IMG/VR virus record: IMGVR_UViG_2526164604_000012
Direction: 5' to 3' (one strand)
Source: a virus
Taxonomy: Duplodnaviria > Heunggongvirae > Uroviricota > Caudoviricetes
Length of the DNA stretch: 24,334 nucleotides
The position numbers are program-made. Positions 1 to 6,000 of this stretch are shown here, one piece after another; position 1 is the stretch's first letter, and the number at the start of each line of letters is the position of its first letter.

Positions 1-3000
1 TCTTTAATCTCGATTACGACAAAGAAATTCTGGCTAAAGCTCTTGCCCATAAAGCAGATGAACTTCCGTTAATCATCGAACTGGTGAGTAAAGGAAAAAA
101 ATATGTCATCTGCCACGCCGATTATCCTTGTGATAAATACGAGTTTGGAAAGCCAGTTGATCATCAGCAGGTAATCTGGAACCGCGAACGAATCAGCAAC
201 TCACAAGACGGGATCGTGAAAGAAATCAAAGGCGCGGACACGTTCATCTTTGGTCATACGCCAGCAGTGAAACCACTCAAATTTGCCAACCAGATGTATA
301 TCGATACTGGCGCAGTGTTCTGCGGAAACCTCACATTGATTCAGGTACAGGGAGAAGGCGCATGAGACTCGAAAGCGTAGCTAAATTTCATTCGCCAAAA
401 AGCCCGATGATGAGCGACTCACTACTGGCCACAGTTTATTGGTTTTCGTAACTGAGTCATTTTATTATTTTATTGCAACTTTTAATCTTTTATAGTGCGA
501 AATAAATGGAGCTGGCATTCATTTCGCACTTTATGTTTTTGTTGGACTTATGTTATTTTGATTGAATTCAATTCAGTTAAAAAAAGAAGGTGATTGCTCC
601 ATTTATAAATGAATAGTCATCCCCTGTCTTGAATTCTGATGTTACTTTATTAAATGCTAGTGTGAAGGCTACAGGTGCATACCCAATTGTTGCGCCAACT
701 TGATATTCATCAACAGTTTTGTTTAGCGATACTGTTGTTTGTTTCGTCTGTATTGTTTTTCCTTCGAGAGTATAGTTGCGATTGACATCTCGTCTTTCCA
801 TACCTGCAAAAATCTTGTATTTGAATCCGCTTGTATCGGACATATGCATTAAACCACGGGGAGCCAGCAGACCAAAGCCATTATCCGAATTGAAGGTTTT
901 ATCATTACCAATGGCAATGGTTGCGCCATATGCTACATATTGAAATAAGTTTCCAGTAACAGCAGAAACTTCAGGGTATAATCCAACATTAGCACCTAAA
1001 ATATCCATACTTGGTGTCATGGATAGCATCCCTTTTACAGTATAACCGTAGCGATTCTCTATTTGATCATCCCATGCATGATATTTTTCTGCCCCAATAA
1101 TCTCATGAGCTTTATTTTGTACTTTCTGACCGCCTGCGTCGGGGCCAACAACACCTATGTCAGTACCTAATCGATAGCGAATCCAGTCATTCGCAAGGGA
1201 GTTCCATTCAATACCAGTGTGAGTGTATGCACTAAAAGCTCTGTCTCCAGTTACAGCTGTGTTGTGTCTTTTATTACTGCCTGATGGAGAGTAAATATCT
1301 TGCGCAATATGGAGAGATAATTGGCTCGAGTCTGAGATATCGTGGCTATATCCCAGAAATAAGCCTTGTGAGTAATCATCTCTGTTTTCATGTTTATTGC
1401 CATAAATATCATTAAGTATTGGTTGAAACTTCCCTGCATCATCATTTGCTAATGATAATGCAAGGCTGTTCGCGATAGCTGAACACGTGGTAAATGACAG
1501 AGCAATAAAGACGCCAGCGATGACACTTTTTTTCATATGTTATTGTCTTCCTTTTTTTTGAATGGTGCGCGTATTTTACATACATGAGTTTGTAATGCAA
1601 GGTGCGTAATCAATATGATGTTTTATAATTGCGTGAGACAATTGATTTATTCGTTTTTTATTGCGGTTTTTATTATCTTTTAATGTAACGGTGTTTTTAT
1701 TAAGTGTGTTTGCGTGGTGTTTTATGTTTTTTATAATTTTATTTTATTAAATTTAAATGCATTAGTAATGGCTATTCTATATAGCAATATAAGAACTGTT
1801 ACAAAAAAAGGGGGGGCAATTACAGGTAGTTATGGATGATGAGTGAAACAGATATTGGAGAACCGGGGAATGAATGATGTCTGAGTCTTATATATCAGAA
1901 CTCCTTCGCTGTCGCTGGGGGCTCCTGTGCTTATGTCGTTTCCCCGATTCGGTTTTGAACGATTACCGAATGTTGAAGAATTATGCCAAAATATAGAAAG
2001 GATTTACTGCATGAATACCCAATATTTACAGTATGTTCGTGAGCAACTTATGGCAGCTACTGCTGACTTGAACGGAGCAACGAAAGGCCAGCTCGAAGCC
2101 TGGCAGGAGCATGCACAATTTGATACTGGTACATACAAACGAAAGAAGCCGCGCATTCTGGATGTGGTAACTGGCAAGATGATTACGCTGGATAATACGC
2201 CGACTTCCGGTAAGCAGTCGTACGCAAAAGGTTCATCCATTGCTTTGGTCAGCCCGGTTGAATTCTCAACCTCTTCATGGCGCCGCGCGGTTTTGTCTCT
2301 CGATGAACATCAGAAAGCATGGTTGCTTTGGTGTTACAGCGAAAGCGTTCGATGGGGGCATCAGGTCACCATAACGCAATGGGCATGGAGCGAGTTTAAA
2401 GATTTGTTAAGTAACAGAAAAATTGCAGGTAAGACACTGGATCGCCTGAAGACGTTAATCTGGCTGGCTGCACAGGATGTGAAGAGCGAACTTGCAGGGC
2501 GTGAGGCCTATGAATACCAGACACTGGCATCATTGGTGGGAGTGACAACAAAAAACTGGTCCGAGACATTTACTGAACGCTGGGTTGCAATGAAGCACAT
2601 TTTTCTACAGCTTGATAGTGATGCTTTATTGCTTGTGACGAGAACACGTTCAAAACAAAAGGCAGCATTTTTACAGCAAAATATTGCAAAACTGGATTAA
2701 AAGCCATATACTTCATGCAAATTTGGTATGTTGTAAAAAATGTATAAACCCGCTGCCGAGTGGGTTTTTTTATGCCCTGAGTTGTACTTGTACGGTAAAC
2801 ATGCTGGCTGCTATGTAATAGAGTTTTTTTAGCCTGTAACCTCTTGACGGCATTGAATTGCTTTTGTTATGAGTTGTAAGCCAATGTTATCATCTTGTAT
2901 TGGGGTGGTTATGAAGGATGGTGCGCTGCTCAGGAGTTCTTCACTTTTTATTGCCTACATGGGATGCCTTGGATGGGGGAGTGCTTATTTCTATGGATGG

Positions 3001-6000
3001 GGTACTTCTTTTTACTACGGCTTCCCATGGTGGATTGTAGGTGCAGGTGTTGATGATGTTGCCAGAAGTTTATTTTTTGCAGTTATCGTCATTGCTATAT
3101 TTCTTATCGGTTGGGGTATTGGTGTTGTATTCTTTTTCGCAGTGAAAAGAAAACATTCTATGCAAGAGCTAAATGTATTTCGCCTTTATTTTGCTGTGGA
3201 ATTATTGTTTGTGCCGGCAATTATTGAGTTTTCTATATTGAGACAGAAGATTCAGGTACCTCTTTTGCTACTGTCAGCAGCGATTGCGCTGGCGGTTACA
3301 ATTTCGATAAGATCTTATGGGCGATTTTTATCGGTATCATGCTTCTATGATAAGCCATTTATAAAAAAACATTTTTTTGAGATTGTGATGATTGCTTTTG
3401 TGGCATATTTCTGGCTTTTTTCATTTCTGACAGGATATTACAAACCACAGTTTAAGAAAGAATATGAAATGATTAATTATAATGATGGTTGGTATTATGT
3501 TCTTGCTCGTTATGATAATTGTCTGGTTTTGTCTACTTCTTTCAATGCAGGTAGTAAAAGGTTTGTCATTTATCAATCAGCACAAGATAAGAATCTTCAG
3601 GTTGATATTGTAAGGACCAGAATTTAATTGGCTGCATAAATAATATTTTAAGTTGCAAGTTGGCTATTCGTAGGAATAGAACCTTAGGCATGCTGAATGC
3701 GTTTCCTGAACATTGTTTTATAAACTGTGTCTGCTTGCTGTTGTGATCCTGCTTTTAGTGATGGTGATGATGGATTTCACCAGCAGGATAATGTTGGTAC
3801 TGACTGATGGCGCTCTGGTCTGCGGCATTGTGGTATTGCTGTGGCCGATGATGAAAGAACAGAATGAATAATTCTTGACTTTTTTGTTTACTGTTTATTA
3901 AAAAATCAACCGCATGGTGAATCCTCCTTGGAGGGGCTAAATGATCGAGTTTTAAGGGCACGTAGCGAGTTCTGTTTGATCATTGCAGAACTTAGCGGGA
4001 GGCGCCATGCGTACATCACTAATGTTATTTCCTTCTATCATTTTCCTTGTGAGTTCTGGCTGCGCATGGCGCGGCCTTTTTTTTATGACCTGCCACTGGC
4101 AGATGGTCATCCTGTGATTTGATTCCGGTTCCGGCTTTTTAACTCTGTTCCTGTACACGGGAGAAATTCTATGTCGATTAATCGTTATGATATTGGTTAC
4201 AAGAAGTACCACGTATTGTGTTGAGATAGAAAGCATGGTGCCAGAGGTAAATGCAGCAGCATAATAAAAAAGAGCCAGCGCAGAAGAGAACGGGTAAAAG
4301 AGTCTGCGCTGGCGTGGGGATATTCCCCGTGGAGAAATGATATGTAACACACATCGGGAACCTTTCTATATAAACATTATCATTATTGTCAATCATAACA
4401 GTCAGGTATTATGACGTTTATGCATCAGGGCCATCAGGAATTAACTGGTGGCTTTTTATTGTTGTCAGCTTCCGGATAACGGGAGACGGGGTATGTACCA
4501 GATGGAAAAAATAACAACAGGTGTGTCATACACCACGTCAGCGGTGGGGACGGGATACTGGCTACTGCAGTTGCTGGACAAAGTCTCCCCATCCCAGTGG
4601 GTGGCAATAGGCGTATTGGGTAGCTTGGTGTTTGGCTTGCTGACGTATCTGACAAACCTTTATTTCAAGATTAAAGAAGATAAGCGTAAGGCTGCGAGAG
4701 GTGAATAATGTCGCCATCATTACGCAAGGCTGTTGCTGCTGCTATTGGTGGTGGGGCTGCTGCCATAGCGTCTGTGCTCATCACTGGTCCGAGTGGTGAC
4801 GATGGCCTGGAAGGTGTCAGCTACATACCATACGAAGATATCGTTGGCGTATGGACTGTATGTCACGGACACACCGGAAAAGACATCATTCCCGGTAAAA
4901 CGTATACCGAAGCAGAATGCAAAGCCCTCCTGAATAAAGACCTTGCCACGGTCGCCAGACAAATTAACCCGTACATCAAAGTCGATATACCGGAAACAAC
5001 GCGCGGCGCTCTTTACTCGTTCGTTTACAACGTGGGCGCTGGTAATTTCAGAACATCGACGCTTCTTCGCAAAATAAACCAGGGTGATATCAAAGGCGCA
5101 TGTGATCAGCTACGGCGCTGGACATACGCTGGCGGTAAGCAATGGAAAGGGCTGATGACTCGCCGCGAGATTGAGCGTGAAGTCTGTTTGTGGGGGCAAC
5201 AATGAGCAGAGTAACCGCGATTATCTCCGCTCTGGTTATCTGCATCATCGTCTGCCAGTCATGGGCGGTTAATCATTACCGTGATAACGCCATCGCCTAT
5301 AAAGAACAGCGTGATAAAAAAGTCAGTGAGCTGAAGCAGGCGACCGCCACCATTACTGACATGCAGCAGCGCCAGCGTGCTGCTGATGCACTCGATGCTA
5401 AATACACGAAGGAGTTAGCTGATGCGAAAGCTAAAAATGATGCTCTTCGGCGCAAGCTTGATAATGGTGGTCGGGTGTTCGTCAAAGGAAAATGCCCTGT
5501 GCCATCCTCAGACGAAACCTCCAGCGCCTCCGGCATGGGCAATGATGCCACCGTCGAACTCTCTCCAGTTGCTGGACGAAACGTTCTCGGTATCCGGGAC
5601 GGAATTATCCGCGACCAAACAGCACTGAGAACGCTTCAGGAATACATCAGGACGCAATGCCTTCGATGATAGCGATAATTTTACTCATCATCCTTCACAT
5701 CTGGCTCTGTAGACAGGGTGGTGCTCACTTCTGGAGTGAATCATGGTTAAACATCTCATTGCTGATGCTTGATATTGAGCATCTGGCGCGCGGTAAGGGG
5801 CTGCGTTGAGATAAGAGCCAGTCATTAAAAATACCTGGATTTAGCCTCGCATTCGCGGGGCTTTTTTATTGCCATTACAAAAGCCACTCCCTACAGAGTG
5901 GCTTTGATAATGGCTTATACCCTACACGGGATAACTTAACTGATATCCCTTTTAACGGATAAAGGTATTCAAGCCTGACACATCATGCGCTGTATCGTCG

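What the first reader, a model, noticed from the sequence alone, without database searches (positions are those of the whole stretch)
2701..3900. AT-rich cargo gene for an uncharacterised multi-pass membrane protein, inserted between Q and the late promoter
In lambda, the late promoter PR' follows Q within about 150 nt. Here about 1.2 kb of visibly AT-rich DNA sits between them, carrying a 238-252 aa ORF (2869-3627) with at least four transmembrane helices and a short polar C-terminal domain. It has its own candidate promoter (TTGACG at 2844-2849) and lies behind a weak post-Q terminator. I recognise no catalytic motif. Prophage genes at this position are commonly lysogen-expressed superinfection-exclusion, abortive-infection or fitness factors, so this is the best candidate in the window for an undescribed phage-defence or exclusion function. 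The function is inference only.
Basis: partly seen in the sequence, partly recalled or inferred. Interest (0 to 1): 0.65.

Follow-up and report, generated by a model that had tools for sequence, protein, structure and literature searches.

The report
TfpB-family membrane gene behind late promoter
The AT-rich ORF is a real, conserved inner-membrane protein gene (ECs0816 of O157 prophage Sp3, also in phage 434) of the function-unknown TfpB family; it lies downstream of the phage late promoter, not upstream, and nothing found here links it to phage defence.

Summary
The ORF is real. It is 36% GC against 51% for the window, is under purifying selection (dN/dS 0.05-0.2), and has five predicted TM helices plus a roughly 55-aa C-terminal beta domain. 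The true start is probably ATG 2911 (238 aa).

The window is E. coli O157:H7 Sakai prophage Sp3, and the gene is ECs0816. Classical phage 434 carries an identical protein. It belongs to Pfam PF27470 "TfpB", named after the ORF in the Moraxella pilin-inversion region, whose function is unknown.

An 82-type late promoter overlaps the Q stop codon:
- -35 at 2684-2689 and -10 at 2707-2712
- a -10-like pause element at 2724-2732
- the "weak post-Q terminator" (2746-2774), which is tR'

This block is conserved behind Q82-type genes of six phages. The ORF is therefore the first late-operon cargo gene, in the slot that stx occupies in Stx phages. About 70 nt of its own upstream DNA travels with it outside phages.

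There are no defence-library hits and no significant fold matches. Homologues sit on Shigella pINV, beside eltAB on ETEC plasmids, and beside sseJ in Salmonella. In Pasteurellaceae they are solitary genes, in one case beside cdtABC.

The function remains unknown. The gene is ordinary and already catalogued.

The parts
2011..2700 (+). Q antiterminator gene, phage-82 type (RefSeq start; the mechanical ORF starts at 1927)
   Evidence: Pfam PF06323 E 1.7e-91, phrog_304. RefSeq and 434 annotation. 89.7% nt identity to phage 82 Q, X92588.
2684..2712 (+). Late promoter PR' of the 82 type: -35 TTGCAA 2684-2689, 17-nt spacer, -10 TATACT 2707-2712; predicted +1 about 2719. The -35 lies in the last codons of Q.
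   Evidence: Consensus scan. TTGCAAAA and the -10 are invariant or nearly so behind Q82-type genes of six phages from E. coli, Klebsiella and Enterobacter. Homology among Q82-type phages runs to 2733 and stops there.
2724..2732 (+). Extended -10-like element TGgTATGTT in the initial transcribed region (+6 to +14). Predicted sigma70-dependent pause and Q-loading site, with the pause near +24/+25 (about 2743).
   Evidence: TG-r-TAT is invariant in all six Q82-type phages. The published 82 PR' pause is at +25 (PMC3326312). The position arithmetic is inference.
2746..2774 (+). Intrinsic terminator tR' (9-bp stem, 4-nt loop, T7). It would end a PR' leader RNA of about 55 nt.
   Evidence: Annotated as a terminator in phage 434. 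Every Q82-type phage aligned has a hairpin plus T-run at the equivalent place.
2840..2910 (+). The gene's own upstream region: TTGACG 2844-2849, TTGTTA 2864-2869, TGtTATCAT 2885-2893, Shine-Dalgarno GGGGTGG 2902-2908. Candidate autonomous promoter.
   Evidence: Homology to the ETEC-plasmid homologue starts at 2840 (74.8% nt). Both hexamer pairs are conserved there. Scan hit at 2864-2893. Function not shown.
2911..3627 (+). TfpB-family (PF27470) inner-membrane protein gene, 238 aa. It is ECs0816 of Sakai Sp3 and CPT_434_68 of phage 434. Five TM helices plus a C-terminal beta domain.
3713..3871 (+). tciB-like small membrane protein gene (DUF3927), the next cargo gene. It is not an obligatory partner of the TfpB gene.
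   Evidence: Pfam PF13064 E 3.4e-14, phrog_1470. It follows the TfpB gene only in prophage copies. In phages Evi and PPyecE it follows a TerB-like TciA instead.
4493..4708 (+). Class II (phage 21-type) holin, the start of the lysis cassette. It marks the downstream end of the cargo slot.
   Evidence: Pfam PF04971 E 2e-32. RefSeq annotation.

Best explanation
The ORF (true start probably 2911, 238 aa) is a functional stand-alone gene for an inner-membrane protein of the TfpB family (Pfam PF27470). It is carried as accessory cargo (a 'moron') in the late operon of a lambdoid prophage.

Shown:
- The prophage has a phage-82-type Q gene. Its late promoter PR' overlaps the Q stop codon (2684-2712).
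- A conserved -10-like element follows at 2724-2732, and an intrinsic terminator tR' at 2746-2774.
- The TfpB gene is the first gene after tR' and upstream of the holin. This is the same slot that stx occupies in Stx phages.

Inferred:
- In the lysogen, RNA polymerase starting at PR' stops at tR' after about 55 nt.
- When an 82-type Q protein is present, it loads at the sigma70 pause near +25 and carries transcription through tR', the TfpB gene, tciB and two further terminators into the lysis genes.
- The gene probably also has its own promoter within 2840-2900, which travels with it outside phages. If so, it can be expressed in the lysogen independently of Q.
- The protein is predicted to sit N-in/C-out, with five TM helices and a small SH3-like beta domain in the periplasm.
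- Its most conserved part is an aromatic and glycine-rich stretch (GWGSAYFYGWGxSFYYGFPWW...D..ARSL) at the periplasmic end of TM1, the TM1-TM2 loop and the start of TM2.
- No polar residue is conserved across the wider family. It most likely acts by binding something at the periplasmic face of the inner membrane rather than by catalysis.
- The likeliest role is a lysogenic-conversion or host-adaptation envelope factor, not a virion, lysis or defence-system component. The ligand and the phenotype are unknown.
For: Identity and family:
- The region is 100% identical to O157:H7 genomes and 99.3% identical to phage 434 from Q to 4195. It is Sakai Sp3, gene ECs0816.
- All homologues carry the precomputed tag PF27470, named TfpB.
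- In Moraxella lacunata the homologue sits between a Piv-like IS110-family recombinase, a promoterless pilin cassette and a pilin gene.

Real gene:
- dN/dS is 0.05-0.20, and the architecture is conserved to below 20% identity.

PR' and tR':
- Consensus scan.
- TTGCAAAA, a 17-nt spacer, yATAyT, then TGrTAT is conserved behind Q82-type genes of six phages, each followed by a hairpin plus T-run.
- Q82-type homology ends at 2733.
- Phage 2B8 has a lambda-type Q (PF03589) and a lambda-like PR', then joins the same ORF module from 2747.
- The published 82 pause at +25 fits the position of the element.

Cargo status:
- PhiR47_2 has Q, PR', tR' and then the holin within 310 bp.
- Only 434 and 2B8 among 50,697 phage records encode the protein.

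Own promoter:
- Homology with the ETEC-plasmid copy starts at 2840.
- The Salmonella gene I take to be the homologue, STM1630 (the equation rests on gene order, not on a sequence match), has its own TSS, is macrophage-induced and is co-regulated with SPI-2 (PMC6785131, PMC2639726).

Structure:
- AF2 model with pLDDT 82.9. Positive-inside charge distribution.

Non-catalytic:
- Across 44 diverse members only Gly, Ala, Tyr and Pro columns stay above 90%.
Against: - No transcript, pause or termination was measured. The promoter scan finds no more sites than shuffles do, so PR' rests on comparative conservation and on my recollection of phage 82 biology. The 82 PR' sequence itself could not be retrieved.
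- The 434 annotators marked a CII site and a paQ -35 on the minus strand overlapping my -35, and did not annotate PR'.
- Sp3 lacks its immunity and replication region, so Q-dependent expression here would need Q supplied in trans.
- The functional part is inference. There are no fold or sequence matches to anything characterised.
- Deleting STM1630 gave no growth phenotype, and the main text reports reduced intracellular replication only for the other gene tested, STM2475.
- The topology is predicted only.
Confidence: 0.6

Rival explanations
1. One reading: a lysogen-expressed superinfection-exclusion, abortive-infection or colicin-protection protein that blocks entry or kills infected cells at the inner membrane.
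For: - It sits in a moron slot and is an AT-rich membrane protein with a likely own promoter.
- Its neighbour tciB belongs to a PHROG annotated as inhibition of cell division or resistance to colicin.
- In other lambdoid phages the same slot upstream of tciB holds a TerB-like TciA.
- The periplasm-facing domain would suit interference with incoming DNA or colicins (inference).
Against: - No PADLOC match at E <= 1, and no match to any PHROG annotated as exclusion.
- The neighbours of 15 or more non-phage homologues are housekeeping, toxin or effector genes, not defence genes.
- The gene is very rare in sequenced phages.
- TciB is not a conserved partner.
- No phenotype data exist.
Confidence: 0.15
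2. A type IV pilus accessory protein, as the family name TfpB suggests.
For: In Moraxella lacunata and M. equi the homologue lies inside the pilin-inversion region, between pilin cassettes and piv.
Against: - In those same Moraxella loci the gene is split by a frameshift. From my own recollection of Rozsa & Marrs 1991, M. lacunata is nevertheless piliated.
- No pilin or pilus-assembly gene is near the gene in the window or on the plasmids.
- None is near it in Salmonella, Citrobacter, Klebsiella or Pasteurellaceae either.
Confidence: 0.05
3. A lytic-cycle function: a late membrane protein that tunes holin triggering or lysis timing, since it lies in the late transcript just ahead of S, R and Rz.
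For: It is the first gene of the Q-dependent transcript and encodes an inner-membrane protein.
Against: - Related phages lyse without it (PhiR47_2, and almost all lambdoid phages).
- Phage 434B replaced the whole region and is viable (PMC9119081).
- Most homologues are chromosomal or plasmid genes with no lysis genes nearby.
- No holin or antiholin family match.
Confidence: 0.05
4. The cargo lies between Q and the real late promoter, which would be the TTGACT-18-TAAAAA site at 3875-3904.
For: - The -35 at 3875-3880 is TTGACT, the same hexamer as in the lambda-like PR' of phage 2B8 (that lambda PR' itself has TTGACT is my recollection).
- A strong terminator follows at 4058-4085. The unit therefore looks superficially like a PR'-6S-tR' unit.
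Against: - This element travels with tciB regardless of Q type. It occurs in 434 (Q82 type) and 2B8 (lambda type). It also occurs in Evi and PPyecE, where a TerB-like gene, not Q, lies upstream.
- It is absent from Q82-type phages PPompW, RothC and PhiR47_2, which keep the 2684-2732 block.
- It matches the Rfam sRNA family STnc100 over the full model length, below threshold.
Confidence: 0.05

Closest known systems
Moraxella TfpB (ORF of the tfpQ/tfpI pilin-inversion region); Pfam PF27470
   Same: Homologous over the full length. The profile search E-values for the distant full-length representatives run from about 1e-18 to 1e-41; tblastn confirmed the Moraxella loci at 1e-37 to 1e-58 against the query of that search (P0109), and phmmer with the window protein gives 5e-20 to 2e-15 against them. 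It has the same five-TM-plus-beta-domain layout and carries the PF27470 tag.
   Different: It is 20-30% identical. It lies in a prophage late operon rather than a pilin-inversion segment. The founder's function is itself unknown, so membership gives no mechanism.
Salmonella STM1630 (next to sseJ)
   Same: It is 46-48% identical and 238 aa, a solitary AT-rich gene beside horizontally acquired virulence DNA. It has its own promoter and virulence-type regulation (PMC6785131, PMC2639726).
   Different: It is chromosomal, with no Q or PR' upstream. The paper attributes reduced intramacrophage replication only to the other gene it tested, STM2475, and reports no growth defect for the STM1630 mutant. 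The identification with STM1630 is by gene order.
Late-operon morons of lambdoid phages (stxAB, LT-II, nanS-p, bor)
   Same: It sits in the same slot, between PR'-tR' and the lysis cassette. It is dispensable, has foreign base composition, and would be transcribed by Q-modified polymerase and possibly from its own promoter.
   Different: The product is an integral membrane protein of unknown function, not a toxin, esterase or lipoprotein.
Phage 82 Q / PR' / t82 late control region
   Same: It has a Q of the same Pfam family (PF06323), 89.7% nt identical to 82 Q. The promoter overlaps the Q end, the -10-like element is placed for a +25 pause, and a terminator lies close by.
   Different: The 82 PR' sequence itself was not available for direct alignment. 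Relative to the other aligned Q82-type phages, the window is 16-19 nt shorter between the pause element and the terminator.
Membrane superinfection-exclusion proteins (P22 SieA, HK97 gp15, T4 Imm)
   Same: A prophage-borne inner-membrane protein with a periplasm-facing part, and not needed for lytic growth (inference).
   Different: No sequence or PHROG relationship and no fold match. The family is mostly non-phage.

Membership tests
Pfam PF27470 (TfpB) | Significant match to the family model | tested here: met
   Every homologue, including the identical cluster representative P0001, carries the precomputed PF27470 hit, and the name TfpB is shown. The local Pfam-A copy lacks this model, so my own hmmscan was blank.
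Pfam PF27470 (TfpB) | Homology to the Moraxella pilin-inversion ORF tfpB | tested here: met
   M. bovis, M. lacunata and M. equi loci were recovered with the family profile. phmmer of the window protein against them gives E values from 5e-20 to 2e-15. The neighbours are a Piv-like recombinase and pilin cassettes.
Pfam PF27470 (TfpB) | Shared architecture: about 240 aa, five TM helices, C-terminal beta domain | tested here: met
   Alignments A4 and A6 and the AF2 model.
Lambdoid late-operon moron | Located between PR'-tR' and the lysis genes | tested here: met
   PR' at 2684-2712, tR' at 2746-2774, holin at 4493.
Lambdoid late-operon moron | Absent from otherwise syntenic relatives; foreign base composition | tested here: met
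   PhiR47_2 has 310 bp between Q and S. Only 3 of 50,697 phage records match, representing 2 phages. GC is 36% against 51%.
Lambdoid late-operon moron | Own promoter and expression in the lysogen | tested here: inconclusive
   The upstream region from 2840 is conserved in the ETEC plasmid copy, and there is a promoter-like site at 2864-2893. The scan is not above chance. Expression evidence is literature on presumed equivalents only.
Phage 82-type late promoter / Q-utilisation site | Sigma70 promoter immediately after a Q82-family gene, co-varying with Q type | tested here: met
   A lambda-type Q in 2B8 is followed by a lambda-like PR' instead.
Phage 82-type late promoter / Q-utilisation site | -10-like element in the early transcribed region giving a pause at +25 | tested here: inconclusive
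   The conserved TGrTAT is at +6 to +11, with the hexamer ending at +14, which is compatible with a +25 pause. Pausing itself was not measured.
Phage 82-type late promoter / Q-utilisation site | Q-dependent read-through of the downstream terminator | not testable with these tools
   Needs in vitro transcription or an in vivo reporter.
Known anti-phage defence systems (PADLOC-DB) | Match to any defence-protein model | tested here: not met
   No family at E <= 1.
Superinfection-exclusion protein families (PHROGs annotation) | Match to a PHROG annotated as exclusion | tested here: not met
   Only phrog_1521, 14371, 17164 and 3985 match, all of unknown function.
Holins / lysis regulators | Match to a holin or antiholin family | tested here: not met
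   No Pfam, NCBIfam or PHROG lysis family matches the ORF. The holin is the separate gene at 4493-4708.

The most novel reading that the evidence does not exclude
TfpB-family proteins are a single-gene, self-promoted envelope cassette shared by mucosal pathogens: EHEC prophages, Shigella pINV, ETEC LT plasmids, the Salmonella sseJ locus, C. rodentium, Pasteurellaceae and Moraxella. They would confer a so far unrecognised envelope trait, either exclusion of phage or colicin entry, or resistance to a host membrane-active defence. This would work through a periplasmic SH3-like domain and an aromatic-rich membrane-interface site.
Probability: 0.2. Interest if true: 0.55.

Novelty: already known. 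Interest (0 to 1): 0.3.

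Why it matters
The exact protein is already annotated: ECs0816 in Sakai, CPT_434_68 in phage 434, and Pfam PF27470. Nothing new in kind was found.

Three points are useful:
- The late-control region of this prophage and of phage 434 can be annotated precisely (PR', pause element, tR'). This places the gene under Q control, like stx.
- The common RefSeq start codon is probably 27 nt too far upstream.
- The family's distribution points to a host-associated envelope role, not phage defence. 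It occurs on Shigella and ETEC virulence plasmids, next to sseJ, next to lpxR in C. rodentium, and in Pasteurellaceae (next to cdtABC in one species).

If a phenotype were found, it would apply at once to several major enteric pathogens and to classical phage 434.

Tried and rejected
Searches on the ORF that found nothing informative:
- Local Pfam-A, NCBIfam and PADLOC scans: no hits.
- PHROGs: only unknown-function families.
- Pfam scan of 31 diverse members: only scattered chance hits.
- Profile search against PDB sequences: nothing at E <= 5.

Structure:
- The first AF2 run, with 24 close homologues, was poor (pLDDT 58.9). It was redone with 44 diverse sequences.
- The afdb50 library was not available.

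Context and partners:
- The search for related loci with the widest alignment failed for lack of a conserved stretch. It was redone with a narrower one.
- The idea that TciB is a conserved partner was rejected. It follows the gene only in prophage copies.
- The idea that the 3875-4087 element is a fossil PR'-tR' unit was rejected. It travels with tciB, not with Q.

Literature:
- No paper on Moraxella tfpB, PF27470 or ECs0816 is in the library.
- Perdue & Roberts 2010, which shows the 82 PR' sequence, is not held.
- The EDL933 record with Z tags is not in the collection.

Other ORFs:
- ORFs 3952-4350(-), 3983-4117(+) and 3928-4122(+) match no PHROG.

Full report
WHAT THE WINDOW IS. The region is 100% identical to many E. 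coli O157:H7 chromosomes. In strain Sakai it is prophage Sp3, and the ORF is ECs0816, annotated "membrane protein". From upstream of Q to window 4195 it is 99.2-99.3% identical to classical phage 434. There the ORF is CPT_434_68, "putative membrane protein".

The local gene order on the + strand, except lpxR, is:
- lpxR, 577-1536 (-)
- ylcG
- Q, 2011-2700 (Pfam PF06323, the phage-82 type)
- the ORF
- a DUF3927/TciB-like 52-aa gene, 3713-3871
- a class II holin, 4493-4708
- a SAR endolysin and the spanins

CHECK OF THE OBSERVATION. The ORF, its AT-richness and its membrane character are all real.
- GC is 36.3% for the ORF, against 45% for Q and 51.5% for the window.
- Hydropathy gives five hydrophobic segments.
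- An AlphaFold2 model built on 44 diverse homologues has pLDDT 82.9 and pTM 0.76. It shows helices 6-36, 47-79, 84-110, 116-137 and 155-181, then a five-strand beta domain at 184-235.
- The distribution of Lys and Arg favours an N-in/C-out topology with the beta domain in the periplasm (inference).
- The gene is under purifying selection. dN/dS is 0.20, 0.05 and 0.09 against phage 2B8 and two Escherichia homologues.
- Homologues are 237-238 aa, and their start codons all align with ATG 2911, which has GGGGTGG just upstream. The 252-aa (2869) and RefSeq 247-aa (2884) starts are therefore probably too long.

WHERE THE LATE PROMOTER IS. This is the main correction. The consensus scan finds TTGCAA-17-TATACT at 2684-2712, overlapping the Q stop codon (2698-2700). 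It also finds a hairpin plus T-run at 2746-2774. Alone this means little, because the scan finds no more promoter-like sites than shuffled sequence does. The comparative evidence carries the argument.

I aligned the DNA after Q82-type Q genes from six phages: Sp3/434, PPompW, PhiR47_2, Klebsiella RothC and KO-TP1, and Enterobacter ENT1. Three things are conserved:
- TTGCAAAA is invariant.
- The -10 is conserved.
- An extended -10-like TG-r-TAT lies 11-12 nt further on (window 2724-2732, +6 to +14 if +1 is A2719).

Each phage then has its own hairpin plus T-run within 30-60 nt.

Lambdoid late promoters carry such a -10-like element to induce the sigma70-dependent pause at which Q loads. The published pause for 82 PR' is at +25 (PMC3326312). 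In lambda the pause lies 10-11 nt beyond the element (my recollection). Applied to the window, that spacing puts the pause at +24/+25, about 2743 (inference).

Homology among Q82-type phages stops at 2733. Phage 2B8 has a lambda-type Q (PF03589) followed by a lambda-like PR' (TTGACT...GAAACT). It joins the window's sequence from 2747 onward at 97%. So the block up to 2733 co-varies with Q type, as a Q-utilisation site must. The module from 2747 on, comprising terminator, ORF and tciB, is separate cargo.

This is the slot that stx occupies in Stx phages.

The 434 annotators marked a CII site and a paQ -35 on the minus strand at 2676-2689. The second TTGC half-site is not conserved in the Klebsiella and Enterobacter relatives, whereas TTGCAAAA is. 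I read the conservation as belonging to PR'.

The alternative promoter-like site, TTGACT-18-TAAAAA at 3875-3904, has a strong terminator at 4058-4085. It does not co-vary with Q. It accompanies tciB in 434, 2B8, Evi and PPyecE, and it is absent from other Q82-type phages. It matches Rfam STnc100 over the whole model, below threshold (37.7 bits against 47, E 4.7e-6).

EXTENT OF THE CARGO. The TfpB-specific segment runs from about 2747 to about 3720. Evi and PPyecE share the DNA from 3722-3747 onward but carry a TerB-like TciA in place of the ORF. Relative to 434, the window has lost the 1.75-kb nanS-p esterase gene cleanly at 4195/4196.

OWN PROMOTER. Homology between the window and a 59%-identical homologue on ETEC plasmids starts at 2840. 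It covers both TTGACG (2844) and TTGTTA-18-TATCAT (2864-2893). About 70 nt of upstream DNA therefore travels with the gene into a context that has no PR'. This supports an autonomous promoter, though I cannot say which hexamers are used.

Literature on presumed equivalents agrees:
- Salmonella STM1630 has its own mapped TSS, is macrophage-induced and is co-regulated with SPI-2. It is adjacent to sseJ, and I equate it with the homologue by gene order. Its deletion gave no growth phenotype, and only the other gene tested in that study (STM2475) showed reduced intracellular replication (PMC6785131, PMC2639726).

WHAT THE PROTEIN IS. The local Pfam-A, NCBIfam and PADLOC libraries give nothing. PHROGs gives phrog_1521 (E 2e-154, unknown function) and three partial-length unknown-function families.

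The large protein searches find a small family. There are 72 representatives at 50% identity among 1.84 billion proteins. All carry the precomputed tag PF27470, whose name is TfpB.

In Moraxella lacunata and M. equi the homologue lies between an IS110-family recombinase of the Piv type, a promoterless pilin C-terminal cassette and a full pilin gene. From my own knowledge this is the classical tfpQ/tfpI inversion region, where tfpB was named (Fulks et al. 1990; Rozsa & Marrs 1991). The gene is frameshifted in those two species. No function is known for TfpB.

Across 44 diverse members only Gly, Ala, Tyr and Pro columns remain above 90% conserved. None is a polar or catalytic residue. The best-conserved stretch in enterobacteria is GWGSAYFYGWGxSFYYGFPWW...D..ARSL, at the predicted periplasmic end of TM1, the loop and the start of TM2.

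Fold searches give no significant match:
- Foldseek against PDB: best E 0.8
- BFVD: best E 0.04, on 68 columns

The beta domain weakly resembles SH3 or Tudor-like barrels.

WHERE ELSE THE FAMILY OCCURS.
- Only phages 434 and 2B8 among 50,697 phage records.
- 692 of 5,426 complete E. coli genomes, mostly O157:H7, with a median of two copies.
- 156 plasmid records, including 106 from Shigella. One is the S. flexneri virulence plasmid pWR501, where the homologue is 57% identical.
- ETEC plasmids, where the homologue lies back-to-back with eltAB.
- Next to sseJ in Salmonella.
- Next to a split lpxR in Citrobacter rodentium, at about the same divergence as the window's own lpxR.
- Next to umuDC in Klebsiella and Enterobacter.
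- As solitary genes among housekeeping genes in Aggregatibacter (several copies per genome), Actinobacillus, Pasteurella and Conchiformibius.
- Beside cdtABC in Glaesserella.

No defence genes, and no constant partner gene, appear in these neighbourhoods. TciB follows the gene only in the prophage copies.

HOW IT MOST LIKELY WORKS.

Shown:
- It is a conserved, selected, stand-alone inner-membrane protein gene.
- It sits immediately downstream of an 82-type PR'-pause-tR' unit.

Inferred:
- In the lysogen, PR' transcripts end at tR' after about 55 nt.
- With an 82-type Q present, polymerase reads through the ORF, tciB and two more terminators into the lysis genes.
- A second, gene-linked promoter probably gives Q-independent expression.
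- The protein probably acts by binding at the periplasmic face of the inner membrane rather than by catalysis.
- Its company (lpxR, effectors, toxins, virulence plasmids, virulence-type regulation of STM1630) points to a lysogenic-conversion or host-adaptation envelope role rather than phage defence.

I put about 0.85 on the positional and family claims and about 0.3 on the functional class. The ligand and the phenotype are unknown.

One caveat for this particular prophage. Sp3 has lost its immunity and replication region: bet is truncated and is followed directly by ninE. Q-dependent expression here would therefore need Q supplied in trans or from another promoter.

RIVALS.
- An exclusion or defence role is not excluded, but nothing beyond position and the tciB neighbourhood supports it.
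- A pilus role fits only Moraxella.
- A lysis role is contradicted by the gene's dispensability and its non-phage distribution.

NOVELTY AND VERDICT. The sequence, the gene call and the family are all already in public resources, and the function is unknown there too. The finding is a correctly spotted moron with a wrong promoter map and an unsupported functional guess. Interest is modest (0.3). Its value lies in the corrected late-region annotation for 434 and Sp3, and in noticing that one uncharacterised envelope protein family is shared by the mobile virulence DNA of EHEC, Shigella, ETEC, Salmonella and C. rodentium.

Noticed in passing
window 3882-4087 (+): Candidate sRNA unit. It has a full-length but sub-threshold match to Rfam STnc100 (37.7 bits against a gathering score of 47, E 4.7e-6). 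TTGACT-18-TAAAAA lies just upstream at 3875-3904, and a strong terminator (8-bp GC stem plus T8) lies at 4058-4085. It travels with tciB in 434, 2B8, Evi and PPyecE regardless of Q type.
   Followed up: partly
window 4264-4353 (-): Weak full-length match to the EHEC sRNA Esr41 model (32.3 bits against a gathering score of 102, E 0.0012). It lies inside the annotated antisense hypothetical ORF ECs0817 (3952-4350), which matches no PHROG.
   Followed up: no
window 4195/4196: Clean loss of the roughly 1.75-kb nanS-p (SASA esterase) gene relative to phage 434. Window 1-4195 aligns to L001 2610-6796, and window 4196-4280 aligns to L001 8551-8637.
   Followed up: yes
window 577-1536 (-) and L053 2863-4717: lpxR (lipid A deacylase) lies upstream of Q as another envelope moron. 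In Citrobacter rodentium, lpxR (split) and the TfpB homologue are direct divergent neighbours with no Q between them. They are 72.6% and 74.3% nt identical to the window genes. This suggests an older lpxR-tfpB islet that the Q82 module now separates, or the reverse.
   Followed up: partly
window 2884-2910: The RefSeq and 434 start codon (ATG 2884, 247 aa) overlaps the predicted extended -10 (TGtTATCAT, 2885-2893). It is not shared by homologues, so ATG 2911 (238 aa) is the likely start.
   Followed up: yes
L034-L037 and L045 (ETEC plasmids), 2987-5714: The heat-labile enterotoxin operon eltAB lies back-to-back with a TfpB-family gene 59% identical to the window ORF, about 870 bp away, within an IS-rich region that also carries STb and EAST1.
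   Followed up: partly
L044 (Shigella flexneri pWR501) 6001-6717; 106 Shigella plasmid records: The Shigella invasion plasmid carries a 57%-identical TfpB-family gene annotated as hypothetical.
   Followed up: no
L003 (phage 2B8) 2430-2530: In 2B8 a lambda-like PR' precedes the same ORF, but the hairpin that corresponds to tR' is degenerate. There the ORF might be transcribed constitutively from PR'.
   Followed up: no
L002 1340-2223 and L041 10355-12018 (outside the window, upstream): Sp3 lacks the whole N-cI-cro-O-P region: a truncated bet is followed directly by ninE, and the integrase is a pseudogene. The prophage cannot drive its own Q expression in the normal way.
   Followed up: no
window 362-433: RefSeq and the 434 record annotate a short N-terminal fragment of a lambda-type Q just upstream of lpxR. 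The lpxR-ylcG-Q82 block therefore replaced most of an older Q gene.
   Followed up: no
window about 17481-18790: A segment of about 1.3 kb is 95% identical to DNA on Shigella pWR501 (L044 3227-4532 and 1-550). It is presumably an insertion sequence inside the prophage tail region.
   Followed up: no
window 2676-2689 (-): There is a perfect TTGC-N6-TTGC (CII-site consensus) on the minus strand, annotated as paQ in phage 434. It overlaps the PR' -35. Only the half that coincides with TTGCAA is conserved in Klebsiella and Enterobacter relatives.
   Followed up: partly
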